64,000 nt of DNA from Candidatus Tayloriibacteriota bacterium (GTDB taxonomy: Bacteria > Patescibacteriota > Minisyncoccia > Phycocordibacterales > PALSA-1337). Below the pieces are notes generated by a model. That model was given only the letters and a program-made list of their open reading frames with translations. It did not search any database and was not told the origin of the DNA. Location of the stretch: positions 41,429 through 105,428 of the forward strand of contig JBAXSG010000001.1 in the NCBI GenBank assembly GCA_037130865.1. Direction: 5' to 3'. The first letter of the stretch is position 1. Every line of letters starts with the position of its first letter. Of this stretch, positions 30,237 through 53,555 are shown piece after piece. A program made the position numbers and the translations under genes.

Positions 30237-30440
30237 TGGAAGTTGGGTCTCTTGGCCGAAGCCAGATTTATTTAATATTGGCAAAACCTGTGTCGCCATG
30301 CTACATTACTCTTATTGCTACCCAGTATTTTGAGTTTATTAATAGTTAACTTCGCCTCCAGATAGGCAGAGTTGAACGCCGCCTTTATACTTTATATGGC
30401 GCGCTCATTCAAAGCTGAAATCTGTGGGCGACATATTCGC

Positions 30441-38971: not shown

Positions 38972-39853
38972 GTGTATGATGTAGAAATGAGCCCTGAAAA
39001 ATCCCTAAAACCAAAAAAATCCCTCGGTCAACACTTTCTACATTCGCCGTCGGCGCTAAAAAAGATTGTTGAGGCCGCGAAGATAATGCCAGATGAAACC
39101 GTACTCGAAATAGGCCCGGGAACTGGTATTTTGACTGAAGCACTTCTCGCAACTGGCGCGCAAGTGGTGGCGATAGAGAAAGATGCACGCGCATACGAAG
39201 TTTTGTCACAAAAATTCTCAAAAGAGCTCGCTAGTAAACAGTTAAAACTGATTATCGGCGATATTTTGGAAGAAAATTTTGAAAAACTTGGTGCCGAAGA
39301 TATCAAAGAAGGGAAATATGCCCTCGTCGCGAATATTCCTTACTACATAACTGGCGCGATTCTAGAAAAATTCCTCGAACACACACCGAGACCGAACCGT
39401 ATGATCTTATTGGTGCAAAAAGAAGTGGCTGAACGCATCATCGCTCGTGATAAAAAAGAAAGCGTACTTTCTATATCTGTAAAAGCCTTTGGTACGCCAC
39501 ATATAGTGGCGATTGTACCGCGTGGAGCATTTGTACCAGCACCAAATGTAGACTCCGCAATACTGGAGATAACGGATATATCCGATGTGCGTTTCAACCC
39601 AAATATTGAAAAAATGGCTCTAAATAGCCAAAAAACGCTTGCAATACCTAGATTTTTCAAGATCGTCAAAGCTGGTTTCGCACACAAAAGAAAGTTTGCG
39701 CGCAGAAATCTAGAAAATTTGGCTGGAACAGAAGAATTCATAACTCGTGAAAAAATCGAGGAGATTTGGCAGAAAATAGGACTGGATGAAAAAATCAGGC
39801 CTGAAGATATGACTGTAAAAAACTGGTTAGAAATATTGACATTGAGTTGTTAA
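38972..39853 (+). CDS. rsmA: 16S rRNA (adenine1518/1519-N6)-dimethyltransferase
   Basis: KKSLGQHFLHSPSALKKIVEAA...VLEIGPGTGILTEALL...ANIPYYIT, KsgA/RsmA motifs. Confidence 0.9.
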   Translation: MYDVEMSPEKSLKPKKSLGQHFLHSPSALKKIVEAAKIMPDETVLEIGPGTGILTEALLATGAQVVAIEKDARAYEVLSQKFSKELASKQLKLIIGDILEENFEKLGAEDIKEGKYALVANIPYYITGAILEKFLEHTPRPNRMILLVQKEVAERIIARDKKESVLSISVKAFGTPHIVAIVPRGAFVPAPNVDSAILEITDISDVRFNPNIEKMALNSQKTLAIPRFFKIVKAGFAHKRKFARRNLENLAGTEEFITREKIEEIWQKIGLDEKIRPEDMTVKNWLEILTLSC

Positions 39854-39903
39854 CAGTTTGCTTAGTTAGACATCGCGCAATCTGCTATAATCTACAAGGT
39901 ATT

Positions 39904-40773
39904 ATGCCAATTATCCCAAAGAGCAGGCAGACTATTGTAGTATCTGTAATATGCCTTTTAATCGTGGTGGCTACTCTAGTCATCGTCTATGGTTTTCCTG
40001 GAAATAATCCAGCAAATAACGGTGTCGTAGCCGATGCAACCGCCTCTCTCGCTTCACAAAACATGTCCACGAGTACTGATTGGCAGAAATCCTTCTACGA
40101 GGTCTCTGGTACATCTACAAAACCATATGGTGCAGATCTTGCTGCCACCACAAACTCTGGATCATCTACGGAAATATTGACGAATACAGATATTTTGGGA
40201 AGGAATTTTCTCACAGTGTATTCACAGATGCATCAAGCTGGTATAGAAAGTGATTCGCAAACAGTAAGCACAGTCGCAAACAAGCTTGCATCAAACAGTC
40301 TGGCTGGTGTGGGTTCTCCAAATATATATTATGGCAATGACATAAAAATCGTGGCGGATTCTTCTGCTAATGCTGGTACATACGCAAAATCTCTAAGTGT
40401 TATCTTGTCTGGATCTATACCTTCTGAAAATGAAGCCGTCATCGCAGACAATGCTTTTCAGAAAAATGACATGACTATATTAAAAAAAATAGATCCTGTG
40501 ATAGCAGGGTATAATAAGACCATAAAATCTCTGTTGGCCACACCGGTCCCTCAGTCTGCCAGCCAGTATCATATCGATCTTGTAAATGGTTTCAGTATGC
40601 AAGTCTACAATGCGACCGCTTTGCGACATGTAGACAGTGACCCTGTTCTTAGTCTTGCAGCGATAGGTCAAGTGATTCCAGCACTTCAGCGTATCAGTAC
40701 GGCACTGGTGAATCTACAGAGATATTTCAATACAAGTGGTGTGACTTTCATAGCTCCTACACCTGGCCAATAA
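39904..40773 (+). CDS. hypothetical secreted / membrane-anchored protein
   Basis: N-terminal TM/signal (TIVVSVICLLIVVATLVIVYG), Ser/Thr-rich. No family recognised. Confidence 0.4.
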   Translation: MPIIPKSRQTIVVSVICLLIVVATLVIVYGFPGNNPANNGVVADATASLASQNMSTSTDWQKSFYEVSGTSTKPYGADLAATTNSGSSTEILTNTDILGRNFLTVYSQMHQAGIESDSQTVSTVANKLASNSLAGVGSPNIYYGNDIKIVADSSANAGTYAKSLSVILSGSIPSENEAVIADNAFQKNDMTILKKIDPVIAGYNKTIKSLLATPVPQSASQYHIDLVNGFSMQVYNATALRHVDSDPVLSLAAIGQVIPALQRISTALVNLQRYFNTSGVTFIAPTPGQ

Positions 40774-40792
40774 TTTTCAATAATTAAAATCT

Positions 40793-42424
40793 ATGAAAAT
40801 AAATGAATCATATAAAAAAATAGTCAGCATCATACTCTTAACAGCTATAGTGTTTTCTTATGTACAAGTGGTGGCGCCACAAAGAGCAAGTGCTGTTGCA
40901 GGAATAGCAGATGTAACCGTCGTCACTGTAGCCGCAAATACTAGCCCTACCGAGCTACAAAACACTGTAAACTCTTGGATGGAGCGCATAAAAAACTTCA
41001 TCTTGGACCGTCTAGCAACAGCTATAGCAAACGCTATCTTGAACCAGATGACCGCCAGTGTTATAAACTGGATAAATAATGGCTTCCAAGGTAGCCCTTC
41101 ATTTATGACAAACCCTGAAGATTTTTTCCTGGATGCTGCCGACCAAGTAACTGGTCAATTCATCGCTGAAACAGGTATTATGTCGCAACTATGTTCGCCG
41201 TTTAGTATAAATATCCGCGCAAACCTGGCTCTTGGTAGCGCACAATCTTCTCGTGGAAGTTACGCTTGTACTTTGAGAACAGTTGTAGCAAATGCAAAAA
41301 ATATCCCAAACAACATAACTCTAAATGGACAAAACATTCAAGGATTTATGGATGGAGATTTCCGACAAGGTGGTTGGGTTTCATTCAACTCAATAATGAT
41401 GGACCCACAAAACGATCCATTCTTCGCATATCATTCAGCTGTTGGTGATATAAGAGCAGCCGTTACCACAAAGAAAAATGCTATCAATCTAGATCTGTCT
41501 GCTGGTGCTGGTTTCATGTCATTTAAAGTGTGTGATCCTGTACCTGTTGGCGGAACATATATAGATGCCTCTGGTGCAAAAGCGGTAAACACTCCTGCTC
41601 CTGCAGATCTTGTTGGTCCTCCAGCTCCTCCTCCAAAAAATTGTCACACGGAAACACCTGGATCCGCTATTTCTAACAGCTTGACTAAGACTCTTGGTGT
41701 GCCGTTCGACAAGCTTACACTGGCAAACAATATAAACGCTATTATAGACGCCTTGGTCTCACAGATGGTCATGCAGGTGCTTGGTGGTGGTTTGCGTGCT
41801 ATGAGTAGTGGTAGTAGTGGTGGTCCTTCATACACTAGTCAGATATACGATACATCATTGAAAGACAATTCAAATTCCGCATACTCCGTATATGGCCAGA
41901 GTAGCGATCCAATATTGGGAATTGTTCAGGAATATAAATCAAACTACGATACAGCAGTCTCGTTGATGCAGGGCGGTCAGGCAAACTTGAATTCTGCAAA
42001 GGCCTGTCTTGCAGGAAAGTATAGTGGTTTGTCTTCGGTGATAAGCAATCCGAAAATGACCCAGCAAGATAAGGCCAAGTATCAGAACATTATGAGTGAT
42101 ATACAATCACGAATAAACTCTATAGACAGTAGCTTGCAAAACCAGGTAAGCGTGCTTCTAAGCACATTTGGCCGCGGCGCAGCAGATGGTTATGCCAAGC
42201 TTGCTCAAGCACAAAATGTAAACCAGGTGCTTATATCAAACAGTTACGATGGTACCGCCAGTGCTACTGCAGCCGCTTCCATATCAGCAGAGCTACAAGC
42301 AGGAAAGCTTGATACCTCGAGAACTGACCTGCAAAATGCTCAAAATACAGCAAGTAGTCTAAACTCTGGTGCGGATTCTTATAACCAATTCTGTAATAGT
42401 ATATCTGTGCCAGTCATACAATAA
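40793..42424 (+). CDS. hypothetical secreted protein, first gene of the type IV secretion-like cluster
   Basis: Signal peptide MKINESYKKIVSIILLTAIVFSYVQVVAPQRASA. 543 aa. Pro-rich linker PAPADLVGPPAPPP. Confidence 0.4.
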   Translation: MKINESYKKIVSIILLTAIVFSYVQVVAPQRASAVAGIADVTVVTVAANTSPTELQNTVNSWMERIKNFILDRLATAIANAILNQMTASVINWINNGFQGSPSFMTNPEDFFLDAADQVTGQFIAETGIMSQLCSPFSINIRANLALGSAQSSRGSYACTLRTVVANAKNIPNNITLNGQNIQGFMDGDFRQGGWVSFNSIMMDPQNDPFFAYHSAVGDIRAAVTTKKNAINLDLSAGAGFMSFKVCDPVPVGGTYIDASGAKAVNTPAPADLVGPPAPPPKNCHTETPGSAISNSLTKTLGVPFDKLTLANNINAIIDALVSQMVMQVLGGGLRAMSSGSSGGPSYTSQIYDTSLKDNSNSAYSVYGQSSDPILGIVQEYKSNYDTAVSLMQGGQANLNSAKACLAGKYSGLSSVISNPKMTQQDKAKYQNIMSDIQSRINSIDSSLQNQVSVLLSTFGRGAADGYAKLAQAQNVNQVLISNSYDGTASATAAASISAELQAGKLDTSRTDLQNAQNTASSLNSGADSYNQFCNSISVPVIQ

Positions 42425-42426
42425 AA

Positions 42427-44301
42427 ATGTTCAATAAACACAAGTACAAATTCATAAGTCTGGCGCTACTAGTTGTACTGGCTGGTGTTGCTTTGCCGAT
42501 ACATTTTGCGCATGCAGGTTTATCTGATCTGCTTGGAATAGGAAATATTCCATCTGCGGTTATATTGTTTGTTATATCTGTAGGTATGACTGTAGTGTTC
42601 CATGTGGTTGGATTCTTACTGACTATGGCTGGTGGTTTATTGAACATATCCATAAATCTTACTCTCCATATAAAAGACTTCGTACAAAATACAGCCGGTG
42701 TCTACCTTGTATGGCAGACCATACGAGATGTATCTGGAATGCTTATAATATTCCTACTTCTCTATACATCTTTCCGAACAATTCTTGGTATCGATCAGGG
42801 TATAAATAAGCTGATAAAAGATATTATCATCGCTGGTATACTCATAAACTTCAGCTTCTTCTTGGTTGGTGTAATGATAGATGCTTCAAACATGATCTCT
42901 TTGTCTGTATTCAATGCTATAGCTCCAGCACAGGGAACTACTTGTAATGTTGGTTCTGGTAATTTTTCCAGCTGTTCCGTATCTAGTATGTTGGACTCAT
43001 CGACATACGACGGAGGATTATCTTCTATAATAATGCAAAATTTGAAGATTACTGGACTATTTTCTGCAAAATGGATGAGTCTAGATGTGGTAAATATGAG
43101 CGCAACCCAATTTAAGATATTGTTCATACAGATAATCGGTATCTTAGTGATGGGTGGTCTGGCAATAAGTTTTATTGTAGCTGCAATCGCTTTTGTAGTA
43201 AGGCTCGTAATGCTTATATTTATATTGGCCTTCTCACCAGTCTGGTTTGCCTCGTGGATATTCCCTGACATGAAACCGCTGTCCGACAAATTCTCTAGTG
43301 CTTTGAAGGGTCAACTCGTCTTCATGCCAGTCTATCTGTTCTTGTTATATGCGGCCATAAAGATATTAGAGACAATGAAGCTCGGTTCGTCTGCAACTTC
43401 AATAGATACCTCTTCAGCCGCGGTTGCTGCAAAAGGAGCTTTGTCTCTACTCATAAACTCTACTTTCGTCATCGCTATGATCAACCTACCACTCATGGGT
43501 GCAATAAGTGTGGCTGGATTGACAAATAGCTGGTTCGACAAGATGACAAGTTCGATAAAAAATAAGACAACAAGTTTTATTGGAAGAAATACTCTTGGTA
43601 GGGCAGCAGCGAAGTTTGAGAATTCTAAATTTATGCGTGACCAATATAACAATGGAAATCCATTGGTTAGCCGCGCACTCTCTTTGGGTCTTTCTAAGAC
43701 AAGAACAGCTGGATTTGGTGGAGGAAAAGGTTCTGGTTTCGATGATGTAAGGAAGAAAAAGGTAGAGGCTTATACGAAGATAGCACAAAAGGGTGATCTC
43801 AACGATGAAGAAAAAGATGCAATAAAGAAAAATACAGAAAACAGCGCGGATTACAAAGAAAACCAAGCTAAAATAGCTGCACTGAAGAGTGGTCGAGTAC
43901 AAGAATTGCAGGACAAGAAGAAGGTTTTGAGGGAGGAGATGGAAATTCTTGCAAAAAGCTTAGGTTCGACAAAAGCAGGATCTGCTGAACAGAAAAACAT
44001 AGCAACAAAGATAGAAGCAAACAAAGAGCAGTCGAAAAATGTAAGAGAGGAGTTATCAGAACATACAGATGCGATAAAATCTCATGAGGAGGCAAATACT
44101 ACACTTGTAAAGAAGGCGCAAGATGAAAGAAAATCAGCACTCGTAATGAAGTGGAAGGCTAAGGGTGGTGTATACAAGGAAGCTGCCAAAAAATACGGGA
44201 AAGATGAGACGACTGCAGATAAAATCAATAAAGCCTTGCGAGAAGAGGCACAAAAGATAGCAGCATCTACTCCTCCTACTACTCCACCAGCGGCATCTTG
44301 A
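42427..44301 (+). CDS. VirB6/TrbL-like polytopic membrane protein with a charged coiled-coil tail
   Basis: At least seven predicted TM helices in the first 400 aa, then a Lys/Glu-rich coiled-coil C-terminus. Its position is adjacent to the VirB4-like ATPase. Confidence 0.5.
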   Translation: MFNKHKYKFISLALLVVLAGVALPIHFAHAGLSDLLGIGNIPSAVILFVISVGMTVVFHVVGFLLTMAGGLLNISINLTLHIKDFVQNTAGVYLVWQTIRDVSGMLIIFLLLYTSFRTILGIDQGINKLIKDIIIAGILINFSFFLVGVMIDASNMISLSVFNAIAPAQGTTCNVGSGNFSSCSVSSMLDSSTYDGGLSSIIMQNLKITGLFSAKWMSLDVVNMSATQFKILFIQIIGILVMGGLAISFIVAAIAFVVRLVMLIFILAFSPVWFASWIFPDMKPLSDKFSSALKGQLVFMPVYLFLLYAAIKILETMKLGSSATSIDTSSAAVAAKGALSLLINSTFVIAMINLPLMGAISVAGLTNSWFDKMTSSIKNKTTSFIGRNTLGRAAAKFENSKFMRDQYNNGNPLVSRALSLGLSKTRTAGFGGGKGSGFDDVRKKKVEAYTKIAQKGDLNDEEKDAIKKNTENSADYKENQAKIAALKSGRVQELQDKKKVLREEMEILAKSLGSTKAGSAEQKNIATKIEANKEQSKNVREELSEHTDAIKSHEEANTTLVKKAQDERKSALVMKWKAKGGVYKEAAKKYGKDETTADKINKALREEAQKIAASTPPTTPPAAS

Positions 44302-44319
44302 GATAAAAAATAGTGGCAA

Positions 44320-44982
44320 ATGAACTTACAAAAAGACACCAACATGAATACTGACCAACACCCAATACAACTGATAAAAGAGCGTTTTGCTGAACTTCCA
44401 CCAGAAGTGCAAGCCGCTGTCACTGCATCTGACTTGAAAGATAAGATGCGTGCGATTGGTGATAAATACAACCTCCTTCTAGACAAACAGAGTGATCTCC
44501 AGAGGTTAATCTTGATAGTTATGTTGGGACTTATGTCATCGAGTGAATTCGTGCCATCTCTTATGGAAGAATTGAAGATAAGCCGCACTGAAGCAAATTT
44601 GATAGCCAATGATGTCAGTGAACAGATATTTGCCCCTATCCGTACACATTTGAGAGAATGGGAAGAGCAAACAGAAACAGATCTCGAGCGCCTTGGAGAC
44701 TTCACTATAGACCATACCCAGACGGCGGGGAATGAGTCTCTATCTACAGAAGACAATGCTGGCAACGGTATGCTTGTGGAAAGACGACCTACAATTCTAG
44801 ATAGTATAGAGAACCCTCAACCAGCCAAGAGGACATTTGTCACAAAAACATCAGAAACACGTACAGAGCCACTCACTGACCATCTCTTGAGCACTCCTGT
44901 CACAGTTCCACCACAAAGGATTGTACAGCCAAGCACACAGACCCAGAAGTCAGCAGACCCCTACAAGGAATCAATCGCTTAG
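44320..44982 (+). CDS. hypothetical acidic protein
   Basis: 220 aa with no motifs, inside the T4SS-like cluster. Confidence 0.35.
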   Translation: MNLQKDTNMNTDQHPIQLIKERFAELPPEVQAAVTASDLKDKMRAIGDKYNLLLDKQSDLQRLILIVMLGLMSSSEFVPSLMEELKISRTEANLIANDVSEQIFAPIRTHLREWEEQTETDLERLGDFTIDHTQTAGNESLSTEDNAGNGMLVERRPTILDSIENPQPAKRTFVTKTSETRTEPLTDHLLSTPVTVPPQRIVQPSTQTQKSADPYKESIA

Positions 44983-44994
44983 TGTGATATAATT

Positions 44995-45447
44995 GTGACA
45001 ATGCGCTTTCAAGTTCCTCAATTTATCGAGATTGAAGATAAGATATTTGGCCCATTGACGCTGAAGCAGTTTATTTATTTGGCTGGTGGTGGTGGGTTGT
45101 CTTTCATGGTGTACATATTCCTTAACAACCTTTTCTTGTCTGCGTTACCGATCTTGATCATAGTGGGTATATCTGGATTGTTGGCATTCTTCAAGATAAA
45201 CAATAAACCCCTAATAAACGTTATCGAATCTGCTTACAAATATTATGTCGGCGACAAGCTCTATATCTGGAAGAAGGTGGCCAATCCACAACCAACAATA
45301 GAGCCGGCGACTACCAATGATATGAAAAATTATGCCTCCATCATGGTCCCAAAGATGTCAAATAGTAAATTGAAGGATCTAACCTGGAGTTTGGATGTGC
45401 AAGATAGTAGATATGCAAATAAAAACTCAAAGAGTAACAACCGCTAA
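44995..45447 (+). CDS. small two-TM membrane protein (VirB3/PrgI-like position)
   Basis: 150 aa. Hydrophobic segments LAGGGGLSFMVYIFLNNLFLSALPILIIVGISGLLAFF. It is located two genes upstream of the VirB4-like gene. Confidence 0.35.
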   Translation: MTMRFQVPQFIEIEDKIFGPLTLKQFIYLAGGGGLSFMVYIFLNNLFLSALPILIIVGISGLLAFFKINNKPLINVIESAYKYYVGDKLYIWKKVANPQPTIEPATTNDMKNYASIMVPKMSNSKLKDLTWSLDVQDSRYANKNSKSNNR

Positions 45448-45456
45448 AAAAATATC

Positions 45457-46104
45457 ATGGCACAAAGCACAAAAACAACTCAAGATTTTATACCAATACA
45501 AGAAATACGCGACGGTATAATCATACTGAAGGGCGGTGGTATGCGCTCAGTTATATTGGCGTCATCTCTGAACTTTGCTTTGAAGTCTGGAGATGAGCAG
45601 GCGTCAATCTTGATGCAATTCCAAAACTTTTTGAACTCTCTGGATTTCTCTGTGCAGATTTTCATTCAGTCAAAAAAGCTTGATATAAGGCCATATTTGG
45701 CTCTTCTGGAAGATCGTTACAAAGAACAAAATACGGATCTTATGAAGATCCAAGTTCAAGAATATATCGGATTCATAAAAGCTTTCGTGGAGAGTACAGA
45801 TATTATGACAAAAAGCTTCTTTATTGTTGTTCCTTATGATCCACCAATGCTAACTGCCAACAATAACCCGATCACAAATCTTTTTGGCGGTAAAAATTCC
45901 ACCGGTAATACCTCAGCTTCTGCTGAAAAACAAAAAAGTTTCAGTGAATATAGGAGTCAGTTGGAACAGCGTTCAGCTGTGGTAGAACAAGGTCTGGTTC
46001 GTTGTGGTGTGCGCGCAGCAGAGCTTGGAACAGAGGAGATCGTCGAGCTCTTCTACAAACTCTTCAATCCAGGCGAAACAGAAAAGCCGATACAGATAAC
46101 ATAA
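45457..46104 (+). CDS. hypothetical T4SS-associated protein
   Basis: 215 aa (...DFIPIQEIRDGIIILKGGGMRSVILASSLNFALKSGDEQ...). It resembles N-terminal regions seen in Gram-positive conjugative ATPase partners, but this is not certain. Confidence 0.35.
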   Translation: MAQSTKTTQDFIPIQEIRDGIIILKGGGMRSVILASSLNFALKSGDEQASILMQFQNFLNSLDFSVQIFIQSKKLDIRPYLALLEDRYKEQNTDLMKIQVQEYIGFIKAFVESTDIMTKSFFIVVPYDPPMLTANNNPITNLFGGKNSTGNTSASAEKQKSFSEYRSQLEQRSAVVEQGLVRCGVRAAELGTEEIVELFYKLFNPGETEKPIQIT

Positions 46105-46116
46105 AATATTAAAATC

Positions 46117-47931
46117 ATGTCATTCCTAGGAAAAATCTTCAATAAAAAAGAACAATCACCGATTGTTTCTATACTGCCACAAGAAATATATCAGGCTGGA
46201 GTCTTGGAATTGCGTGATGTTATAGCACCATCAGCTCTGAAGGTCACTCCAAAAGAATTAAATCTTGGCGAAAAGGTTGCACGTACACTCTTCGTCATTT
46301 CATATCCACGCTTCTTGGAAGAGAGTTGGTTTGCACCGATCATCAACCTCGACAAAGTCTTCAATGTCTCCATATTTATTCATCCTGTGGATACTGCAAA
46401 GATTTTGCGACATTTCCAAAAGAAGGTGGCTGAAGTACAGAGCCAGATATCTAGAAGGGAGGACAAGGGTCTTGTGCGCGACCCTTCACTAGATACCGCT
46501 TACCAAGACCTAGAAACACTGCGTGACCAGCTTATGCAGGCTCAAGAGCACCTCTTCGATGTGGGTATATATATCACCATATTTGCTGATAGTGATAGTG
46601 AGTTGGACAAGCTCGAATCCGAGATCAAATCCATGTTGGAGTCCAAGCTTATATATGTGAAGCCAGCATTGTTCCAGCAAGAACAGGGCTTTAAGAGCGT
46701 TATACCTATAGCCGATGACCAACTTTCTGTGCATTCCAAACTCAACTCTTCACCACTTTCGAGTATATTCCCATTCGTTTCATTTGATCTGACGGAAAAC
46801 AAGGGTATCCTTTATGGTATAAATCGTCACAATTCTTCTCTAGTCTTGTTTGATAGATTCTCTCTAGAAAACTATAACTCTGTGACCTTCGCTGTCGCTG
46901 GTGCTGGTAAATCTTACTGCACAAAGCTGGAAATCTTACGCACACTCATGTTCGATACCGATGTCCTTGTTATTGACCCTGAAAAAGAATATGAATACAT
47001 GGCTGAAGCTACTGGTGGAAAATATTTCAATATCTCATTGAACTCTGAACACCATATAAATCCATTTGATTTGCCAGTACCAGCAGAAGATGAATCAACT
47101 TCAGATGTCTTGCGTTCAAATATCATAAACTTGGTCGGTCTTTTCCGTATAATGTTCGGCGGTTTGTCACAAGAAGAAGATGCCATCATAGATCGTGCCA
47201 TCACTGAGACTTATGCTTTGAAAGATATAACAGCAGACTCTGATTTCCGTAATGTTGAGCCACCTCTTCTCTCTGATTTCGAGCTAGTCCTCGCTGGGAT
47301 GGAAGGTGCAGAGTCTCTAGTAGAGCGTCTGACGAAATATACGAAGGGAACATGGGCTGGTTTCATCAACAGACCATCCAATGTCGACATAAATAACAAA
47401 TTTGCTGTCTTTTCACTCCGTGATATGGAAGATGAGCTCAAACCGGTGGCTATGTATATAGTTACACACTATATATGGAACATGGTCCGCAGAACGAAGA
47501 AGAAGCGTCTTCTTGTGGTCGATGAAGCTTGGTGGATGATGAAATCCGAAGATACGGCCTCATTCTTGTTCGGAATAGCAAAGAGATGTCGCAAATACTG
47601 GCTTGGTTTGGCCACAATAACGCAAGATGTGGATGATTTCTTGAAATCTCCTTATGGTCTACCGATCCTAACAAACTCTTCTATACAGGTTTTGCTAAAA
47701 CAATCGCCGACAATAATAGATCATATCCAAGAGACATTCCATCTAACAGATGAAGAAAAGTATTTGCTTCTAGAGTCCGATGTTGGAGAAGGTATCTTCT
47801 TCGTTGGTCTCAAACATGTGGCCTTAAAAGTGGTCGCTTCGTACACAGAAGACCAGATCATCACCACAAATCCAGAACAGGTCCAACAAATCCAGCGTGC
47901 AAAGAAGGAGCTAGAGGCGGCAGGGCAGTAG
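46117..47931 (+). CDS. virB4: VirB4/TrbE-family conjugation/secretion ATPase
   Basis: 604 aa. N-terminal ...LGEKVARTLFVISYPRFLEESWFAPIINLD..., Walker A FAVAGAGKSYCTK and Walker B RLLVVDEAWWMM. Confidence 0.8.
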   Translation: MSFLGKIFNKKEQSPIVSILPQEIYQAGVLELRDVIAPSALKVTPKELNLGEKVARTLFVISYPRFLEESWFAPIINLDKVFNVSIFIHPVDTAKILRHFQKKVAEVQSQISRREDKGLVRDPSLDTAYQDLETLRDQLMQAQEHLFDVGIYITIFADSDSELDKLESEIKSMLESKLIYVKPALFQQEQGFKSVIPIADDQLSVHSKLNSSPLSSIFPFVSFDLTENKGILYGINRHNSSLVLFDRFSLENYNSVTFAVAGAGKSYCTKLEILRTLMFDTDVLVIDPEKEYEYMAEATGGKYFNISLNSEHHINPFDLPVPAEDESTSDVLRSNIINLVGLFRIMFGGLSQEEDAIIDRAITETYALKDITADSDFRNVEPPLLSDFELVLAGMEGAESLVERLTKYTKGTWAGFINRPSNVDINNKFAVFSLRDMEDELKPVAMYIVTHYIWNMVRRTKKKRLLVVDEAWWMMKSEDTASFLFGIAKRCRKYWLGLATITQDVDDFLKSPYGLPILTNSSIQVLLKQSPTIIDHIQETFHLTDEEKYLLLESDVGEGIFFVGLKHVALKVVASYTEDQIITTNPEQVQQIQRAKKELEAAGQ

Positions 47932-47952
47932 AGGTGGTATAATTCGTTTATT

Positions 47953-48468
47953 ATGGCTTATAAAAGGAAATCAGACGGCTGGATACTGTTGTATATATTT
48001 GCAGGAGGGATGGATTTTATACAATTCTTCATACTAGAGTTAATCTTTGTGTGGTTTTTTGGGGCTGGCGCAGCTATAAACGAGGTTATAGATCCTATTG
48101 TTGGGGTAATATTGGCTGGTTGGATACAGTTTATCAAGAAAGTGTCTTTGGTTTCCCGCCCACAAAGACTTGTCTCCATGTTTGCGACAGAGGCTGCGGC
48201 CGCACTGACTGGTGGTATAGCTCAATTCTGGATTCTTGATGTTTGGTACATACACAATGATGTAAAAAAGGAGGATAATGAAGCCGAGCAGCAAGAGTTA
48301 CAAAAAAATTTGAGGCCAGAACAAGATGAGCCTATAAATAAAGTTGGTAGTGATGGTGTACCAACACGCCTACCAGAGAAAGCTACACAAGAGGCGGCTG
48401 TAAGTAATATCAGATCAACACCACCCTTAAATATAGTGGCTGGTACCAGTAGACCGCGTGGAAGATAG
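47953..48468 (+). CDS. hypothetical membrane protein
   Basis: 171 aa with three or four hydrophobic helices and an acidic/Gln-rich tail. Confidence 0.35.
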   Translation: MAYKRKSDGWILLYIFAGGMDFIQFFILELIFVWFFGAGAAINEVIDPIVGVILAGWIQFIKKVSLVSRPQRLVSMFATEAAAALTGGIAQFWILDVWYIHNDVKKEDNEAEQQELQKNLRPEQDEPINKVGSDGVPTRLPEKATQEAAVSNIRSTPPLNIVAGTSRPRGR

Positions 48469-48518
48469 TGCATAACCACTTTAGCTATTTTCTCATTTAC
48501 TTGATAAAATACTAGTTA

Positions 48519-49577
48519 ATGAAACCTCGTAATTCTATTGTATTTGTCTGTCTGGTCGCTTCGATAATAACCAGTGTTGTTTTCTCGATCAAAGCTGCAC
48601 AAGCTCAACTAGTTCCTGTGTCTATAAGCGTACTCCAGCTTTCAATATTACCGAAAAATCCAAGCCCAAATGAGTCTGTTGTTGTAAAAGTAGAAAGTTA
48701 TGCCACAGATATCAGTGGTGCAACTATATCTTGGTCAGCAAATGATACGGTTATGAAGAAAGGGGTAGGACTGACAACATTTACTACACAAGCTCCAAAG
48801 TTGGGAAAAACACTAACTATACAAGTAAATGTCGTGACTCCTTCTGGACAACAATACAACGAGAGTTTACCTATAAAATCTGGTGGTGTAGATTTCATCA
48901 CAGAATCCAGTGGTTACACTCCTCCTTTTTTCCTAGGAAGATTGCCGGTTGTTTATGAAAACACTGTGAGAATCGTGGCTGTGCCGCATTTGGCAAATTC
49001 TGCTGGTGTGGAATATGATCCATCGACGCTGATATATAAATGGGAAAAAGACAGTGGCGAGGTTTTGTCTGACATGTCTGGATATGGAAAGAGTTCTATT
49101 GACCTGAAAGGGGATATCATACCTAGACCTTATTCACTTACTGTCACCGTGAATACAAAAGATGGCACAAATACAACAAAAGGAACTGTGTCTGTAATAC
49201 CACAACGAGCTAGTCTGGTTTTTTATGTAAATGATTCTTTGTATGGTCCTTTGTACAACAGATCTATAGATACAGTAAATCTTGGTACACAAAAAGAACT
49301 TTCTGTAGTCGCTGTTCCATTTGGTTTTGATAAAGTTTTAAATGGTCTAGGTAATCTTGTTTTAAATTGGTCAATAAATGGCACCTACAACTCCGACTTG
49401 GGTTCTAGTAACAATATTGTCTTGAGAGCACCAGACGGCTCAGCTGGTTCATCTGATATCAATCTTAGTATAAGCAATAAAAGGGAATTCCTACAGAGCG
49501 CTAATAGCGGCTTCGCCACAAATTTCAGTGGAGCTACTGATTCGACCAATTCAACAAGTAATCCTGTAACATTTTAA
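48519..49577 (+). CDS. hypothetical secreted beta-rich protein
   Basis: Signal peptide MKPRNSIVFVCLVASIITSVVFSIKAAQA. Ser/Thr/Asn-rich with repeated beta-strand-like segments. Confidence 0.4.
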   Translation: MKPRNSIVFVCLVASIITSVVFSIKAAQAQLVPVSISVLQLSILPKNPSPNESVVVKVESYATDISGATISWSANDTVMKKGVGLTTFTTQAPKLGKTLTIQVNVVTPSGQQYNESLPIKSGGVDFITESSGYTPPFFLGRLPVVYENTVRIVAVPHLANSAGVEYDPSTLIYKWEKDSGEVLSDMSGYGKSSIDLKGDIIPRPYSLTVTVNTKDGTNTTKGTVSVIPQRASLVFYVNDSLYGPLYNRSIDTVNLGTQKELSVVAVPFGFDKVLNGLGNLVLNWSINGTYNSDLGSSNNIVLRAPDGSAGSSDINLSISNKREFLQSANSGFATNFSGATDSTNSTSNPVTF

Positions 49578-49582
49578 ATAAT

Positions 49583-51040
49583 ATGAAAATGAAAAAAGAA
49601 AAAATTATCATTCTAGGAATAGTTGCGTCAGTATTGTTTGGTGGTGTTGTTAATGGTCAAACTACTAAAAACACTCCAACATCAGTCTCTGGGCCAGTTC
49701 CAACCTCAACAACTACTCAATCTCTAGGCTCTCTAAACATCCTATCACCAGGAACAAATTCAATCTCAGACGGAGTGACACCGTCAGCTGCTGCAAAACT
49801 TGATCAAAACCTACAGTTTCAAAATAATGGTGGTTTAGTGAACACACCAACTAAATCTCCTGGTAGCTACACCCTTCTAGAACCACTGCCTTGTATTGAG
49901 GCATTGAAAAATGGTGCTCCTGGTATCGAGTGTATAAATGGTCAAGTGGTAGATATGAATATAAAAGGTTATGTTCAGTATATGTTCAACTTGCTTATAG
50001 CAATATCAGCCGTGGCTGCGGTGTTCATGATTGTTTTGGGAGGATTCGAATATATGACATCAGACGCTATACAAGGAAAAAGTGAAGGAAAAGAGAAGAT
50101 TAAACATGCTATTGAGGGCCTTCTTCTGGTTTTGTGTTCTTATTTGATCCTACGAACAATAAATCCACAGTTTGTGAATATACCAAATACTTTAGTGGCA
50201 CCGCTAACTACTCAAGTAAAGACTGGCGTCCTAGATTTTTCAACAGTTTTAAATGATCAGGCCAATTTCGCCATAAATAATAGAAACTATGCAGTAACAA
50301 CTCTAAATAATGCCAAAACAACCATCGCCAATCTATCTACACAACACAACACAATCTCTGAACAGTTGATGTCTAACCAAAATACAGATGGTACACCTTT
50401 AACTGCTAGTCAGAGGGATACATTGATTCTACAAAATGCAGAGTTTCAAGATCAAATAAACCAAATGAAGGCAGTAGTTGTTGTTAATTCAGGTGCTCAA
50501 GCATTTCAAACTAGTGTCACATATGCTGCTCAAGGAAAAACTGATATGACTTTAGATGCTAATATAGCTAATATTGACAACATATACAAACAAGATGCAA
50601 CTAGTTTAGTTGATGGTGGTCTGGCCGCACAACCATACACCACAGCAGATGGTTATAAAACCACAGCGGCACAACAATTAAAAGATCAAGCTTCTTACGC
50701 AAAAGGTTTGTTGTTGATTCAACAAAGCCAGCAAATAGACTCTAGTAATCTTGGTATAAAAACTATTGTAGGTTCGACTGCTGCTGGTGCAGTCACTGGA
50801 GCGACCGTAGCTGGTGCCGGTGGAACATTTGTAGTCCCTGTAGTAGGAACTGCTGTTGGTGCTGGTGGTGGTGCTGTTGTTGGTGGTGGTATAGGACTTG
50901 CATCAGGTCTTGCCGTCACTGCAAAAGGGTTGTACTTATCTGCAGAAAACAGCTCTAGGTATAAAGATATTGTTGCCTCTATCCAAGACCCTAAACTACA
51001 AGAGGAACTCAAATCTGCAGCGATAAAAGCTGGTCAATAA
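49583..51040 (+). CDS. pilin-like protein (TrbC/VirB2-like double hydrophobic helix) with a Gly/Ala-rich C-terminal region
   Basis: Signal/TM N-terminus. A central pair of hydrophobic helices (MFNLLIAISAVAAVFMIVLGGFEY ... LLLVLCSYLILRTINPQF) is separated by a short charged loop. The C-terminus is GAVTGATVAGAGGTFVVPVVGTAVGAGGGAVVGGGIGLASGLAV. Confidence 0.35.
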   Translation: MKMKKEKIIILGIVASVLFGGVVNGQTTKNTPTSVSGPVPTSTTTQSLGSLNILSPGTNSISDGVTPSAAAKLDQNLQFQNNGGLVNTPTKSPGSYTLLEPLPCIEALKNGAPGIECINGQVVDMNIKGYVQYMFNLLIAISAVAAVFMIVLGGFEYMTSDAIQGKSEGKEKIKHAIEGLLLVLCSYLILRTINPQFVNIPNTLVAPLTTQVKTGVLDFSTVLNDQANFAINNRNYAVTTLNNAKTTIANLSTQHNTISEQLMSNQNTDGTPLTASQRDTLILQNAEFQDQINQMKAVVVVNSGAQAFQTSVTYAAQGKTDMTLDANIANIDNIYKQDATSLVDGGLAAQPYTTADGYKTTAAQQLKDQASYAKGLLLIQQSQQIDSSNLGIKTIVGSTAAGAVTGATVAGAGGTFVVPVVGTAVGAGGGAVVGGGIGLASGLAVTAKGLYLSAENSSRYKDIVASIQDPKLQEELKSAAIKAGQ

Positions 51041-51066
51041 TTATAAACACTTAAGATACATCACCC

Positions 51067-52356
51067 ATGTCCAACCGAGCAGCAACAATCACAATCATCA
51101 TCTTGGTACTTGTCCTCATACTTCTTGGGGTGGGATATTGGTGGTATATGTCACATCTTTCAACACCTGGTCCTATAACAAATAGCTCGAACCCTACTGG
51201 TTTTGTCCCATTAAATCGTGACTCTGGCAGTGGTAGTCAAAGCTCTTCTACTGGAAATGGTTCTATCACAAATTCGACGACTACTGGAAACCAACAAATC
51301 GGTACTATCAAAACAAACCCTATACCTGTTCTTCGTCTCCTAAGTAATACTCCTGTAGGTGGATATGCGGCCAGCACAACTGGTACAACAACGGTGATGC
51401 GTTGGGTTGATAGGGGCCGCGGCAATGTCTACCAGACTCGAGGTGACACATTGAACATAACAACTCTCTCTAACACACTCCTTCCACGCCTTTATAACAG
51501 CTCTTGGAACAAAGATTTGACGGCGTTTATTGGCCAAACATTGCAAGATGATAGTGAAACTCCGACTTCTATATATGCCCAGCTCCAGTCTCGCGCGATA
51601 ACTTCAACAACAAGTGCCTCAACATCCTTTGATTTGCGTGGAAAAAATCTACCAGATAACACTATCGGTTATGCTGTTTCTCCCAAAAAGGATCAGGTCT
51701 TCCTGCTTGTGAAGGGTGATACTGTATCTACTGGATATGTAACCAACTTCGATGGCACAAAGGCTGTACAGATATTTACAACTCCTCTTGCTCAATTAAA
51801 TGTTGATTGGCCATCTGACAATATAATCTCCATAACAAACAAAGGAACTGCTGATAGGGCTGGTTATCTCTATTTCGTAAATCCAAAGACTGGTGCTTGG
51901 ACAAAAATCCTTGGCCCTCTAAATGGTCTAAGCTCTCGTGTCAGCCAAGATGGTAAAAAAGTCTTCTTCTCAGTCGCCGGATCTAACGCCGATGTAAAAT
52001 CTGCTATATATAATATCGCCAGCAGCACAATAACAGACGTGGTTATACAAACTCTCGCCGATAAGTGTGTTTGGGGTAATTTCTACAAAGAAATAGTTTA
52101 CTGCGCGGTACCATTCCAACCTGTTTCTGGTACATATCCAGATGATTGGTATTTGGGCTCTCTCTCAACCATAGACAAGATTTGGCAGATAAACTCTATA
52201 ACAGGGGAGACGAAGCTTGTGAACAACCTTATTGGTCAAGCCGACAGAGTTATAGATGCTTTCAGTCTCGTCTTAGACAACAAAGACAACTTCCTGTTGT
52301 TTATGAATAAAAACGACTTGTCCCTTTGGTCACTTGATCTAGTAAGAAGTAAGTAA
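51067..52356 (+). CDS. hypothetical membrane-anchored protein with a beta-propeller-like C-terminal domain
   Basis: N-terminal TM (ITIIILVLVLILLGVGYWWYM), a Ser/Thr-rich linker and PD40/TolB-like repeat character (DGKKVFFSVAGSN...). Confidence 0.4.
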   Translation: MSNRAATITIIILVLVLILLGVGYWWYMSHLSTPGPITNSSNPTGFVPLNRDSGSGSQSSSTGNGSITNSTTTGNQQIGTIKTNPIPVLRLLSNTPVGGYAASTTGTTTVMRWVDRGRGNVYQTRGDTLNITTLSNTLLPRLYNSSWNKDLTAFIGQTLQDDSETPTSIYAQLQSRAITSTTSASTSFDLRGKNLPDNTIGYAVSPKKDQVFLLVKGDTVSTGYVTNFDGTKAVQIFTTPLAQLNVDWPSDNIISITNKGTADRAGYLYFVNPKTGAWTKILGPLNGLSSRVSQDGKKVFFSVAGSNADVKSAIYNIASSTITDVVIQTLADKCVWGNFYKEIVYCAVPFQPVSGTYPDDWYLGSLSTIDKIWQINSITGETKLVNNLIGQADRVIDAFSLVLDNKDNFLLFMNKNDLSLWSLDLVRSK

Positions 52357-52382
52357 AAAAGCCCCCTCAGGGGCTTTTTTGT
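52355..52382. terminator. bidirectional rho-independent terminator
   Basis: AAAAAA-GCCCC-CTCA-GGGGC-TTTTTT sits between the convergent genes at 51067-52356 (+) and yidC (-). Confidence 0.8.
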
Positions 52383-52393
52383 TGCTTATTGTT

Positions 52394-53152: not shown

Positions 53153-53190
53153 AAGTATATTTAAATAATTAAATGATTATTGAATATCTA

Positions 53191-53553: not shown

Positions 53554-53555
53554 TA

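What the first reader, a model, noticed from the sequence alone, without database searches (positions are those of the whole stretch)
40793..52356. Roughly 11.5-kb co-directional type IV secretion / conjugation-like cluster without a coupling protein or relaxase in view
Ten consecutive plus-strand genes: a VirB4-family ATPase (46117-47931), a VirB6-like polytopic protein with a long charged tail (42427-44301), a VirB2/TrbC-like double-helix pilin candidate carrying an unusual Gly/Ala-rich C-terminus (49583-51040), small membrane proteins, and several large secreted proteins of unknown fold. The cluster ends at a strong bidirectional terminator. No VirD4 or relaxase appears in the window, so this looks like the minimal T4SS-like apparatus reported in host-dependent CPR lineages rather than a mobile conjugative element. 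Its cargo (DNA uptake versus host interaction) is unknown.
Basis: partly seen in the sequence, partly recalled or inferred. Interest (0 to 1): 0.7.

Follow-up and report, generated by a model that had tools for sequence, protein, structure and literature searches.

The report
Patescibacterial type IV secretion locus at oriC
This is the chromosomal, non-conjugative type IV secretion gene cluster that nearly all Patescibacteria (CPR bacteria) keep next to their replication origin and probably use to exploit a host cell; it is a genuine but already described kind of system.

Summary
Ten tightly packed plus-strand genes (40793-52356) end at a real bidirectional terminator, and an upstream membrane-protein gene (39847-40773) probably belongs with them.

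HMM searches identify four parts with direct support in the window:
- A VirB4 ATPase of the Gram-positive CD1110 family.
- A PrgI/VirB3-like protein, also missed.
- A VirB2-type pilin.

The 624-aa polytopic protein is only weakly supported as VirB6, through its orthologues.

No coupling protein, relaxase, integrase border or tRNA border was found. I checked every ORF of 250 aa or more in the window, and the called genes in a further 10 kb on each side.

The window comes from a Candidatus Taylorbacteria (Paceibacteria) MAG. The order uvrD-ksgA-[cluster]-yidC-rnpA-dnaA-dnaN recurs in all 42 related species examined. VirB4 (median 80% identity) is more conserved there than DnaA (59%).

Small additions from this work:
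- One accessory protein is a membrane-anchored 7-bladed beta-propeller.
- Another is made of three tandem homologous repeats.
- The pilin's C-terminal extension is hypervariable. In 15 of 62 relatives, but not here, it is a Hedgehog/DD-peptidase-type domain.

The cargo remains unknown.

The parts
39847..40773 (+). 308-aa bitopic membrane protein (one TM at residues 22-54, Ser/Thr-rich linker, about 200-aa outer domain). Probable eleventh member of the cluster.
   Evidence: A positional homologue was found in 29/42 syntenic loci at 20-38% identity. No Pfam, NCBIfam or PDB relative. Membership is inferred from synteny only.
40793..42424 (+). 543-aa protein with an N-terminal signal/anchor. It has a conserved Cys-containing domain (residues about 60-340: WINxGFxGxPxF motif, invariant C134, C159, C247, C284) and a C-terminal three-helix bundle (363-536).
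   Evidence: Found in 42/42 loci. AlphaFold2 gave mean pLDDT 61, with only residues 363-536 confident. No PDB fold or sequence relative. The DUF4141 hit on orthologues covers only the N-terminal TM and is below cutoff, so it was rejected.
42427..44301 (+). 624-aa VirB6-like polytopic membrane protein with a 258-residue charged C-terminal tail ('extended VirB6' layout).
   Evidence: Hydrophobic N-terminal half (broad hydropathy peaks up to residue 366), then a tail with 52 K+R and 36 D+E. Four of 29 orthologues hit Pfam TrbL/VirB6, best 2.6e-4; the window protein itself has no hit. Found in 41/42 loci.
44320..44982 (+). 220-aa acidic, probably cytoplasmic protein of unknown role. Orthologues share a C-terminal DPY(R/K)E motif.
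   Evidence: Alignment A7 has invariant D213, Y215 and E217. Detected in 24/42 loci. No family or PDB relative.
44995..45447 (+). PrgI/VirB3-like small membrane protein (150 aa, hydrophobic hairpin at 35-70).
   Evidence: Pfam PF12666 PrgI, 2.2e-10, 41.4 bits against GA 27. Found in 42/42 loci, median 52% identity.
45457..46104 (+). TrsD-like protein: the N-terminal domain of VirB4 encoded as a separate 215-aa gene.
   Evidence: Matches the N-terminal parts of three profiles: VirB4_plasma positions 100-233 (1e-9), CD1110 positions 1-111 (5e-6) and TrsD/TraD (7.5e-6). All are below the curated cutoffs. It is a separate ORF of about 211 aa in 80 loci. Median identity 63%.
46117..47931 (+). VirB4 ATPase (604 aa), the motor and signature protein of the system.
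   Evidence: NF045971 at 9e-110, 368 bits > 325, covering profile positions 178-732. P-loop_TraG 1e-24. PDB 4AG5 at 3.4e-39. Walker A at 259-266 and Walker B at 465-470. 77-92% identical across the 80 closest Paceibacteria loci kept of 584 confirmed relatives.
47953..48468 (+). 171-aa small polytopic membrane protein with a hydrophilic tail. Fast-evolving but conserved in position.
   Evidence: Sequence homologues were found in only 5/42 loci. Most loci nevertheless have a 110-250-aa ORF with 2-4 TM segments in the same gap between virB4 and the next gene.
48519..49577 (+). 352-aa exported or anchored protein made of three tandem homologous repeats of about 105 aa. A beta-sandwich (Ig-like) fold is only a guess; I made no secondary-structure or fold prediction for it.
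   Evidence: hhalign between repeat profiles gave 96%, 93% and 80% probability. Invariant W72, W175 and W284 are spaced about 105 residues apart. Only weak Ig-like hints from PDB and Pfam. Found in 42/42 loci.
49583..51040 (+). VirB2-type T4SS pilin (485 aa). It has a signal peptide, a Ser/Thr-rich stretch, a conserved two-helix pilin core (about 95-205), then a hypervariable 280-aa C-terminal extension with a Gly/Ala-rich hydrophobic segment (397-450).
   Evidence: Pfam T4SS_pilin at residues 134-191, 28.3 bits > 26.6. The core is conserved in all 62 orthologues. It is the only pilin-core match in the window. Most homologues cover only 23-60% of the query. The Gly/Ala segment occurs in 2/52. 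NCBI names it 'pilin'.
51067..52356 (+). 429-aa membrane-anchored surface protein: a TM helix (4-29), a disordered Ser/Thr/Gly linker (34-82) and a 7-bladed beta-propeller (89-424).
   Evidence: AlphaFold2 gave mean pLDDT 84 and pTM 0.75. Foldseek returns generic WD40/TolB/DCAF1-type propellers at E 1e-10, TM about 0.5. No Pfam family. Found in 42/42 loci, and 398 homologues in the large protein database.
52352..52383 (.). Bidirectional intrinsic terminator shared with the convergent yidC gene.
   Evidence: A stem of 11-14 pairs with a 4-nt loop and T-runs on both strands.

Best explanation
The region is the core chromosomal type IV secretion system of a Candidatus Taylorbacteria (class Paceibacteria, Patescibacteria/CPR) genome. 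It belongs to the Patescibacteria-specific T4SS lineage derived from the conjugation machinery of monoderm bacteria (MPF-FATA).

Shown here:
- Eleven co-directional genes (39847-52356) run without a strong internal terminator.
- They encode a cytoplasmic-membrane translocon: a VirB6-like channel protein, PrgI/VirB3, and a VirB4 ATPase split into a TrsD-like N-domain and an ATPase gene.
- They also encode one VirB2-type pilin and five lineage-specific envelope proteins, including a membrane-anchored beta-propeller and a three-repeat protein.
- Every ORF of 250 aa or more in the window, and every called gene in the 10 kb beyond each end, lacks a coupling-protein or relaxase family hit.
- The cluster sits at a fixed place beside yidC-rnpA-dnaA-dnaN in all related species examined.
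- Its ATPase evolves more slowly than DnaA.

Inferred:
- VirB4, docked on VirB3 and VirB6, powers assembly of a pilin-based tube or short pilus through the monoderm envelope.
- The surface proteins and the variable pilin extension mediate contact with, and possibly local breaching of, the host cell envelope.
- The apparatus serves the obligate host-dependent lifestyle, either importing host macromolecules or exporting effectors, and does not serve conjugation.
- The direction of transport and the cargo are not established by any evidence here.
For: - **Family hits.** VirB4 CD1110 family at 368 bits > 325; TrsD-like N-domain; PrgI; T4SS_pilin.
- **VirB6.** Weak TrbL/VirB6 hits in 4/29 orthologues.
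- **Closest solved structure.** A Firmicute VirB4 (4AG5, 3e-39) rather than the proteobacterial TrwK (1e-4).
- **Synteny.** uvrD-ksgA-cluster-yidC-rnpA-dnaA-dnaN is conserved in 42/42 loci from different Paceibacteria species. Median identity is VirB4 80%, against DnaA 59%, DnaN 51% and UvrD 54%.
- **No mobility signatures.** No T4CP or relaxase in the ORFs and called genes checked across about 84 kb. No tRNA or repeat borders. GC is 0.408 in the cluster against 0.422 in the rest of the window.
- **Literature.** The same components, the same lack of relaxase and the same dnaA/dnaN/rnpA/ksgA neighbourhood are reported across 2,400 Patescibacteria genomes (PMC12102498). The homologous cluster is essential for epibiotic growth of Southlakia epibionticum, whereas comEC is not (PMC10633639; PMC12857230). 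Tubular structures suggested to be T4SS pili were seen at the parasite-host interface of a cultivated Minisyncoccota (bioRxiv 10.64898/2026.06.21.733656).
Against: - No function was tested. Essentiality data come from Saccharimonadia, a different class with a different accessory gene set and pilin arrays.
- The VirB6 assignment rests on topology plus sub-threshold hits in a minority of orthologues.
- No VirB8-like or VirB1-like component was recognised inside the cluster.
- The TrsD-like match is far below NCBIfam's curated cutoffs.
- A T4CP could lie elsewhere in the genome. The 2025 survey finds VirD4-like proteins in most Patescibacteria genomes, usually far from virB4.
- The loci compared were chosen by VirB4 similarity, which slightly inflates VirB4's apparent conservation.
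Confidence: 0.85

Rival explanations
1. It is a working conjugation (DNA export) system whose coupling protein and relaxase are encoded elsewhere in the genome.
For: All recognisable parts descend from Gram-positive conjugation machinery. VirD4-like proteins are reported in most Patescibacteria genomes, usually far from virB4 (PMC12102498). Only about 84 kb of this genome could be inspected.
Against: - Relaxases were found in only 103 of 3,035 Patescibacteria genomes (PMC12102498).
- The T4CP homologue is not essential in Southlakia although the T4SS is (PMC12102498, PMC10633639).
- The locus is a fixed, vertically inherited core-genome feature at oriC, with purifying selection stronger than on DnaA.
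- It has no mobile-element borders.
Confidence: 0.05
2. It is specifically a DNA or RNA import machine, working like H. pylori ComB or the archaeal Ced system, that feeds host nucleic acids to a cell unable to make nucleotides.
For: - The system lacks T4CP and relaxase, as ComB does.
- VirB4 gives a weak hit to the DNA-import ATPase CedB (35 bits).
- The authors of PMC12102498 propose import of DNA or other macromolecules.
- A 2026 preprint reports host-RNA feeding and T4SS-like tubes in a cultivated Minisyncoccota (10.64898/2026.06.21.733656).
- PNPase (30372-32591) and RNase Y lie in the same window.
Against: - The CedB score is 35 against a cutoff of 700, and the CD1110 conjugative family scores ten times higher.
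- No nucleic-acid-binding domain was found in any cluster protein.
- A separate T4P plus ComEC route for DNA uptake exists in this genome.
- No experiment links a Patescibacteria T4SS to nucleic-acid import.
Confidence: 0.25
3. It is an effector-export system that injects proteins into the host bacterium or archaeon, like T4CP-less effector or toxin T4SSs such as Bordetella Ptl.
For: T4CP-independent protein-secreting T4SSs exist (Ptl, Brucella VirB; PMC12857230). Wang et al. suggest the Southlakia system may export proteins (PMC10633639).
Against: No candidate effector, toxin or immunity gene is recognisable in or next to the cluster. The neighbours are housekeeping genes. The conserved accessory proteins are membrane-anchored rather than free substrates.
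Confidence: 0.25
4. It is a decaying remnant of an integrated conjugative element with no present function.
For: Conjugation-specific parts are missing and VirB4 is split into two genes.
Against: - All genes are intact.
- The split is conserved as two ORFs in 80 loci.
- VirB4 is 77-92% identical across species (80 closest loci of 584) and more conserved than DnaA.
- Synteny is conserved in 42/42 loci.
Confidence: 0.01

Closest known systems
Patescibacteria-clade T4SS (Quinonero-Coronel et al. 2025, PMC12102498), Paceibacteria arrangement
   Same: It has VirB4 with a separate TrsD-like protein, PrgI/VirB3, a divergent VirB6 and a VirB2-like pilin near virB4. It has no relaxase or T4CP nearby and is chromosomal. 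The neighbours are dnaA, dnaN, rnpA and ksgA.
   Different: Nothing essential differs. This locus has a single long pilin (485 aa) rather than an array. Its conserved accessory genes (beta-propeller, three-repeat protein, Cys-rich/three-helix protein) are not named in that paper.
Southlakia epibionticum ML1 T4SS, SEML1_0006-0019 (Wang et al. 2023, PMC10633639)
   Same: It is a monoderm-type T4SS with pilins and no recognisable coupling protein or relaxase. Its low gene numbers (SEML1_0006-0019) hint that it too lies near the start of the chromosome, but I did not verify this.
   Different: It belongs to a different class (Saccharimonadia). It has an array of six small pilins, with peptidase and lysozyme genes downstream of virB4. 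Essentiality was shown there and not here.
Gram-positive conjugative T4SSs of the MPF-FATA class (C. difficile CTn CD1110-type; pGO1/pSK41 Trs; pCF10 Prg; Mycoplasma ICE)
   Same: The VirB4 passes the CD1110-family cutoff. TrsD-like and PrgI-like partners are present, and there is no outer-membrane core (VirB7/9/10).
   Different: Those systems have T4CP, relaxase, oriT and a VirB1-type hydrolase, lack VirB2 pilins, and are mobile. This one has a pilin, lacks the DNA-processing parts and is fixed in the chromosome.
T4CP-less T4SSs (Bordetella Ptl, Brucella VirB) and DNA-uptake T4SSs (H. pylori ComB, archaeal Ced)
   Same: They operate without a coupling protein or relaxase, showing that a VirB4-only motor can move protein or import DNA.
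   Different: Those (apart from the archaeal Ced system) are diderm systems with VirB7-10 cores, or archaeal. Sequence affinity is low here (CedB 35 bits against a cutoff of 700).

Membership tests
Type IV secretion system (VirB4-defined superfamily) | VirB4-family ATPase with intact Walker A and B motifs | tested here: met
   NF045971 at 368 bits > cutoff 325; TraC and VirB4_CagE profiles also match. Walker A at 259-266 and Walker B at 465-470. PDB 4AG5 at 3e-39. No FtsK or HerA family outranks it.
Monoderm MPF-FATA / Patescibacteria-clade T4SS | VirB3/PrgI-like membrane protein next to virB4 | tested here: met
   PF12666 at 41.4 bits > GA 27, two genes upstream of virB4.
Monoderm MPF-FATA / Patescibacteria-clade T4SS | TrsD-like protein (VirB4 N-terminal domain) encoded separately | tested here: met
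   Three profiles align to their N-terminal or TrsD regions at E 1e-9 to 7.5e-6, all below the curated cutoffs. It is conserved as a separate ORF of about 211 aa in 80 loci.
Monoderm MPF-FATA / Patescibacteria-clade T4SS | VirB6-type polytopic channel protein | tested here: inconclusive
   The window protein has no hit at E <= 1. Four of 29 orthologues hit TrbL/VirB6, best 2.6e-4. Topology and position fit. No PDB relative.
Monoderm MPF-FATA / Patescibacteria-clade T4SS | VirB2-like pilin near virB4 (a distinguishing feature of the Patescibacteria clade among monoderm systems) | tested here: met
   PF18895 at 28.3 bits > GA 26.6. All ten orthologues scanned also hit it. The core is conserved in 62 orthologues.
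Monoderm MPF-FATA / Patescibacteria-clade T4SS | No outer-membrane core complex (VirB7/VirB9/VirB10) | tested here: met
   No such family hit among the cluster proteins.
Monoderm MPF-FATA / Patescibacteria-clade T4SS | VirB4 falls inside the monophyletic Patescibacteria clade in a phylogeny | not tested
   No reference tree could be built. As a proxy, the protein is 77-92% identical to VirB4 in the 80 closest loci kept of 584 confirmed relatives, all labelled Patescibacteria/CPR lineages (some only 'uncultured bacterium'), and its best curated family is the Firmicute CD1110 type.
Monoderm MPF-FATA / Patescibacteria-clade T4SS | VirB8-like (NTF2-fold) and VirB1-like (cell-wall hydrolase) accessory proteins | tested here: inconclusive
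   No sequence match in the cluster. A LysM-M23 peptidase lies 4 kb upstream on the opposite strand.
Monoderm MPF-FATA / Patescibacteria-clade T4SS | Chromosomal location near dnaA/dnaN/rnpA/ksgA (typical of Paceibacteria) | tested here: met
   ksgA lies at 38972-39853, yidC, rnpA, dnaA and dnaN at 52394-56508. The same order is seen in 42/42 loci.
Conjugative element (ICE or plasmid) | Relaxase (MOB family) | tested here: not met
   No relaxase family in any ORF of 250 aa or more in the window, nor in the genes called in the 10 kb beyond each end. The rest of the genome was not seen.
Conjugative element (ICE or plasmid) | Type IV coupling protein (VirD4/TcpA) | tested here: not met
   Same scans. 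The other large ATPases in the window are the T4P PilB-type (T2SSE), RuvB, ComM and DnaA.
Conjugative element (ICE or plasmid) | Integration module and borders (integrase next to the element, att repeats, tRNA target), with patchy distribution | tested here: not met
   The nearest tyrosine recombinase (28128-29057, Xer-like) is 11 kb away. The tRNAs lie at 22.8-25.2 kb. Only chance-level repeats were found. GC is like the flanks. The position is invariant in 42 species.
DNA-import T4SS (Ced/ComB) | CedB- or ComB-type ATPase and partner proteins | tested here: not met
   CedB profile scores 35 bits against a cutoff of 700. No CedA- or ComB-like partners were found.

The most novel reading that the evidence does not exclude
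In this Paceibacteria T4SS the VirB2-type pilin may be a modular carrier. A conserved two-helix pilin core is followed by a rapidly exchanged C-terminal 'payload', which by analogy with F-type pili (my own recollection that the pilin termini face outward; not checked here) could be exposed on the outside of the tube.

The payload differs between lineages:
- In 15 of 62 syntenic relatives it is a Hedgehog/DD-peptidase-type (LAS zinc peptidase) domain.
- In one relative it is a 3D (MltA/Rpf-like) cell-wall-lytic domain.
- In this window it is a 280-residue low-complexity stretch ending in a Gly/Ala-rich hydrophobic segment.

If this reading is right, the pilus would carry its own host-wall-cutting or host-binding module. 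That would replace the missing VirB1 and determine host range. I did not find this described in the papers I read.
Probability: 0.3. Interest if true: 0.6.

Novelty: new member of a known kind. Interest (0 to 1): 0.3.

Why it matters
The Patescibacteria T4SS is one of the few conserved machines likely to explain how these ultrasmall, biosynthetically poor bacteria live off other cells. Its cargo and transport direction are still open questions.

This locus adds no new kind of system. It is a clean, complete Paceibacteria example that shows three things:
- The ATPase is under stronger constraint than the replication initiator.
- A fixed set of lineage-specific surface proteins travels with the core: a beta-propeller, a three-repeat protein and a Cys-rich/three-helix protein.
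- The pilin's outer extension is the fastest-changing part, and in relatives it carries peptidoglycan-peptidase-like domains.

These features are concrete targets for structural work and for host-range studies.

Tried and rejected
1. The DUF4141 (Bacteroides Tra-like) hit on orthologues of the 543-aa protein covers only the N-terminal TM segment (residues 15-47) and is below cutoff. Rejected.
2. Profile searches of PDB sequences with orthologue alignments of the 624-, 543-, 352-, 308- and 220-aa proteins gave only coiled-coil or low-complexity noise.
3. The AlphaFold2 model of the 543-aa protein was poor for the conserved N-terminal domain (pLDDT < 50 for most of residues 28-165 and 289-362). 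Its fold search returned only generic helical bundles, so a VirB5-like reading of the three-helix bundle is not supported.
4. The propeller's fold matches are generic (WD40, TolB, DCAF1, oligogalacturonate lyase) and give no functional lead.
5. A search for a second pilin gene or pilin array in the window found none.
7. An ICE reading was rejected: no att-like repeats, no adjacent tRNA or integrase, no GC anomaly.
8. One look-up by exact protein (62631-63920) found nothing on record. RuvB was used instead.
9. The literature search for pilin-hydrolase fusions in Patescibacteria returned only the two papers already read.

Full report

Yes. ORF listing shows ten consecutive plus-strand ORFs at exactly the stated coordinates, from 40793 to 52356. 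They are separated by only 2-50 nt.

The string is in fact longer. uvrD (36965-38965), ksgA/rsmA (38972-39853) and a 308-aa membrane-protein gene (39847-40773) precede it on the same strand with gaps of 6, -7 and 19 nt.

The cluster ends at a perfect bidirectional terminator at 52352-52383, which scores on both strands and is shared with the convergent yidC gene. The cluster's GC content (0.408) matches the rest of the window (0.422).

**2. What the genes are**

Pfam and NCBIfam scans give the following.

- **46117-47931 is a VirB4 ATPase.**
  - It matches the 'VirB4-like conjugal transfer ATPase, CD1110 family' at 9e-110 (368 bits, above the curated 325).
  - Weaker matches go to the Mycoplasma ICE VirB4, F-type TraC and VirB4/CagE families.
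  - Walker A is AVAGAGKS at residues 259-266 and Walker B is LLVVDE at 465-470.
  - Its closest solved structure is the Thermoanaerobacter VirB4 C-domain (4AG5, 3.4e-39). The proteobacterial TrwK scores only 1e-4.
- **45457-46104 (215 aa) is the detached VirB4 N-terminal domain.**
  - It matches the N-terminal parts of the same VirB4 profiles (CD1110 positions 1-111; VirB4_plasma positions 100-233, 1e-9) and the TrsD/TraD family (7.5e-6). The big ATPase covers positions 178-732.
  - VirB4 is thus split into two genes, as in pGO1/pSK41 TrsD-TrsE.
  - The split is conserved as a separate ORF of about 211 aa in 80 related loci.
- **44995-45447 is PrgI/VirB3-like** (PF12666, 2e-10, above the gathering threshold).
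- **49583-51040 is a T4SS pilin.** It carries Pfam T4SS_pilin at residues 134-191 (28.3 bits against GA 26.6). NCBI already names the identical protein 'pilin [Candidatus Taylorbacteria bacterium]'.
- **42427-44301 is VirB6-like, with weak support.**
  - It has a hydrophobic N-terminal half (hydropathy peaks up to residue 366, enough for at least six membrane spans) and a 258-residue charged tail.
  - It has no family hit of its own.
  - Four of 29 syntenic orthologues hit TrbL/VirB6, best E 2.6e-4.
  - I treat the VirB6 assignment as likely but not proven.

**3. The 'unknown' proteins**

- **The 429-aa protein (51067-52356)** folds with high confidence (pLDDT 84).
  - It has a TM helix, a disordered Ser/Thr/Gly linker and a 7-bladed beta-propeller.
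  - Fold matches are generic WD40/TolB-type propellers.
- **The 352-aa protein (48519-49577)** consists of three tandem, mutually homologous repeats of about 105 residues (hhalign 96%, 93% and 80%). A beta-sandwich fold is only a guess; I did not predict its structure.
- **The 543-aa protein (40793-42424)** has a strongly conserved Cys-containing N-terminal domain that AlphaFold could not model, and a confident C-terminal three-helix bundle at residues 363-536. It has no PDB relative by sequence or fold.
- **The 171-aa membrane protein (47953-48468)** has diverged beyond tblastn in most relatives. An ORF of 110-250 aa with 2-4 TM segments nevertheless occupies the same gap in most loci.
- **The 308-aa and 220-aa proteins** have no detectable relatives outside the lineage.
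- No VirB8-like or VirB1-like protein was recognised in the cluster. A LysM-M23 peptidase lies 4 kb upstream on the opposite strand.

**4. Mobile element or core genome?**

All evidence points to core genome.

- Every ORF of 250 aa or more in the window was scanned. The content is housekeeping genes (pgk, tpiA, nusA, tig, RNase Y, the CCA-adding enzyme, exonuclease III, a Xer-like recombinase, PNPase, comM, uvrD, ksgA, yidC, dnaA, a class A PBP, ruvB) plus a type IV pilus set (PilB, PilC, pseudopilins).
- No coupling-protein or relaxase family appears.
- Looking 10 kb beyond each end of the window on the same contig adds HIT, RecJ, RNase H, ComEC, SOD and S12/S7 on one side, and a T2SSE ATPase, Pol I and TsaE on the other. 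Again there is no T4CP or relaxase.
- tRNA genes lie 15 kb away, and only chance-level repeats flank the cluster.

**5. Comparative evidence**

The 543-aa protein is identical to a protein of a Candidatus Taylorbacteria MAG.

A genome-collection scan with VirB4 confirmed 584 relatives. The 80 best kept are 77-92% identical and carry Patescibacteria/CPR labels: Paceibacterota, Parcubacteria, Taylor-, Zambryski- and Kaiserbacteria, many loosely labelled 'Candidatus Saccharibacteria', and some only 'uncultured bacterium'.

In all 42 loci with full 10-kb flanks the order is the same: uvrD, ksgA, 308-aa, 543-aa, VirB6-like, 220-aa, PrgI, TrsD, VirB4, (small TM), three-repeat protein, pilin, propeller, then yidC(-), rnpA(-), dnaA, dnaN.

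Median identity to the window protein across those loci:

| Protein | Median identity |
|---|---|
| VirB4 | 80% |
| TrsD-like | 63% |
| DnaA | 59% |
| UvrD | 54% |
| PrgI | 52% |
| DnaN | 51% |
| Pilin (core only) | 41% |
| Envelope accessory proteins | 27-32% |

The loci were selected by VirB4 similarity, which biases that figure upward somewhat. Even so, the contrast within the same genome pairs is large.

This pattern describes an ancient, vertically inherited and strongly constrained machine, with a slow-evolving cytoplasmic motor and fast-evolving surface parts.

**6. Relation to what is known**

This is the system described in three papers.

- **Quinonero-Coronel et al. 2025 (PMC12102498).**
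  - VirB4 occurs in 2,417 of 3,035 Patescibacteria genomes.
  - It forms a monophyletic clade nested in MPF-FATA.
  - TrsD, PrgI/VirB3, VirB6 and VirB2-like pilins lie nearby.
  - Relaxases occur in only 103 genomes.
  - In Paceibacteria the neighbourhood is dnaA/dnaN/rnpA/ksgA.
- **Wang et al. 2023 (PMC10633639).** The homologous cluster is essential for epibiotic growth of Southlakia epibionticum. It lacks recognisable coupling and relaxase proteins.
- **The 2025 FEMS review (PMC12857230).** It calls these systems unique among monoderm T4SSs for being essential and for their potential to build pili.

In addition, a 2026 preprint reports tubular structures that may be T4SS pili at the interface between a cultivated Minisyncoccota parasite and its host, together with host-RNA feeding.

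**7. Mechanism**

Shown here: the parts list, the operon-like organisation, the absence of DNA-processing genes nearby, the fixed origin-proximal location and the selection pattern.

Inferred:
- VirB4, with its TrsD-like N-domain, is anchored by PrgI/VirB3 and the VirB6-like channel.
- It energises assembly of a pilin-based tube across the monoderm envelope.
- The propeller, the three-repeat protein, the Cys-rich/three-helix protein and the pilin extension form the outward-facing, host-contacting part.
- The apparatus supports host-dependent growth.

Transport direction and cargo are not resolved by any data here. I rate nucleic-acid import and protein export as about equally likely sub-hypotheses (0.25 each), classical conjugation as unlikely (0.05) and a decayed remnant as excluded.

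**8. The one thing that may be new**

Only residues about 95-205 of the pilin are conserved. Most database homologues cover just 23-60% of the query.

The C-terminal extension varies from 0 to about 400 residues.

In 15 of 62 syntenic orthologues from more distant Paceibacteria, the extension is a domain of about 130 residues with invariant His, Asp and His. The evidence for its identity is:
- Its profile matches Hedgehog N-terminal domains, which share the LAS/DD-peptidase zinc-peptidase fold, at E 7e-6.
- One member hits Peptidase_M15_4 at 6e-4.

Another orthologue carries a Pfam 3D domain above threshold.

Pilin-hydrolase fusions of this kind are not mentioned in the papers I read. They suggest that the pilin displays exchangeable wall-cutting or host-binding modules. 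This concerns relatives, not the window itself, and remains a hypothesis.

**9. Verdict**

- The locus is a new member of a known kind.
- Interest is low to moderate (0.3). The system class is biologically important and its cargo unknown, but this instance is typical.

Noticed in passing
L038, L047-L050, L052, L059, L063, L065, L070, L071, L074, L075, L078, L080 (the pilin gene downstream of virB4, e.g. L059:13287-14159, L074:12876-13730); L033:13862-14797: In 15 of 62 syntenic orthologues, the T4SS pilin carries a C-terminal domain of about 130 aa with invariant His/Asp/His. Its profile matches Hedgehog N-terminal (LAS/DD-peptidase fold) chains at E 7e-6, and one member hits Peptidase_M15_4 at 6e-4. 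Another orthologue (L033) carries a 3D domain instead. The window's own pilin has neither.
   Followed up: partly
window 2191-3754 (- strand), possibly to 4836: This looks like a diversity-generating retroelement. A reverse transcriptase (2191-3273, RVT_1 3e-27) sits next to a gene that the public gene call marks as bAvd (L081:7689-7919, roughly window 3470-3700). The 229-aa ORF at 4147-4836 may be the target. Template and variable repeats were not searched.
   Followed up: no
window 5855-11142 (- strand) and 62631-63920 (- strand): A type IV pilus / T2SS-like set shares the window with the T4SS: PilB-type ATPase (9361-11142), PilC (8127-9359), two pseudopilin-like genes (7218-8137) and a 467-aa protein with no family hit (5855-7258). 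A second T2SSE ATPase lies at the right end of the window, and ComEC lies 5 kb beyond the left end.
   Followed up: partly
window 46117-47931 compared with 53572-55182, across L003-L080: Within the same genome pairs VirB4 is more conserved (median 80% identity) than DnaA (59%), DnaN (51%) and UvrD (54%). The envelope proteins of the same operon are at 27-32%.
   Followed up: yes
window 44320-44982: The 220-aa acidic protein ends in a motif that is invariant among orthologues (D213, Y215, E217; consensus DPYREPI, window DPYKESIA). This could be a docking peptide. No known relative was found.
   Followed up: no
window 35682-36743 (- strand): A LysM + M23 peptidase gene lies 4 kb upstream of the cluster and is transcribed divergently from uvrD. 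The 2025 survey notes VirB1-like proteins with M23/LysM domains near virB4 in Paceibacteria. Whether this gene serves the T4SS was not tested.
   Followed up: no
window 13914-14669 (- strand); L083:402-1286: Bro-N domain proteins, often phage-associated or DNA-damage-associated, occur in the window and again just beyond its right end.
   Followed up: no
window 30372-32591 and 19156-20685: PNPase and RNase Y lie in the same origin-proximal region as the T4SS. A 2026 preprint links PNPase and VirB4 to a proposed host-RNA-feeding lifestyle in this phylum. No functional link was tested here.
   Followed up: no
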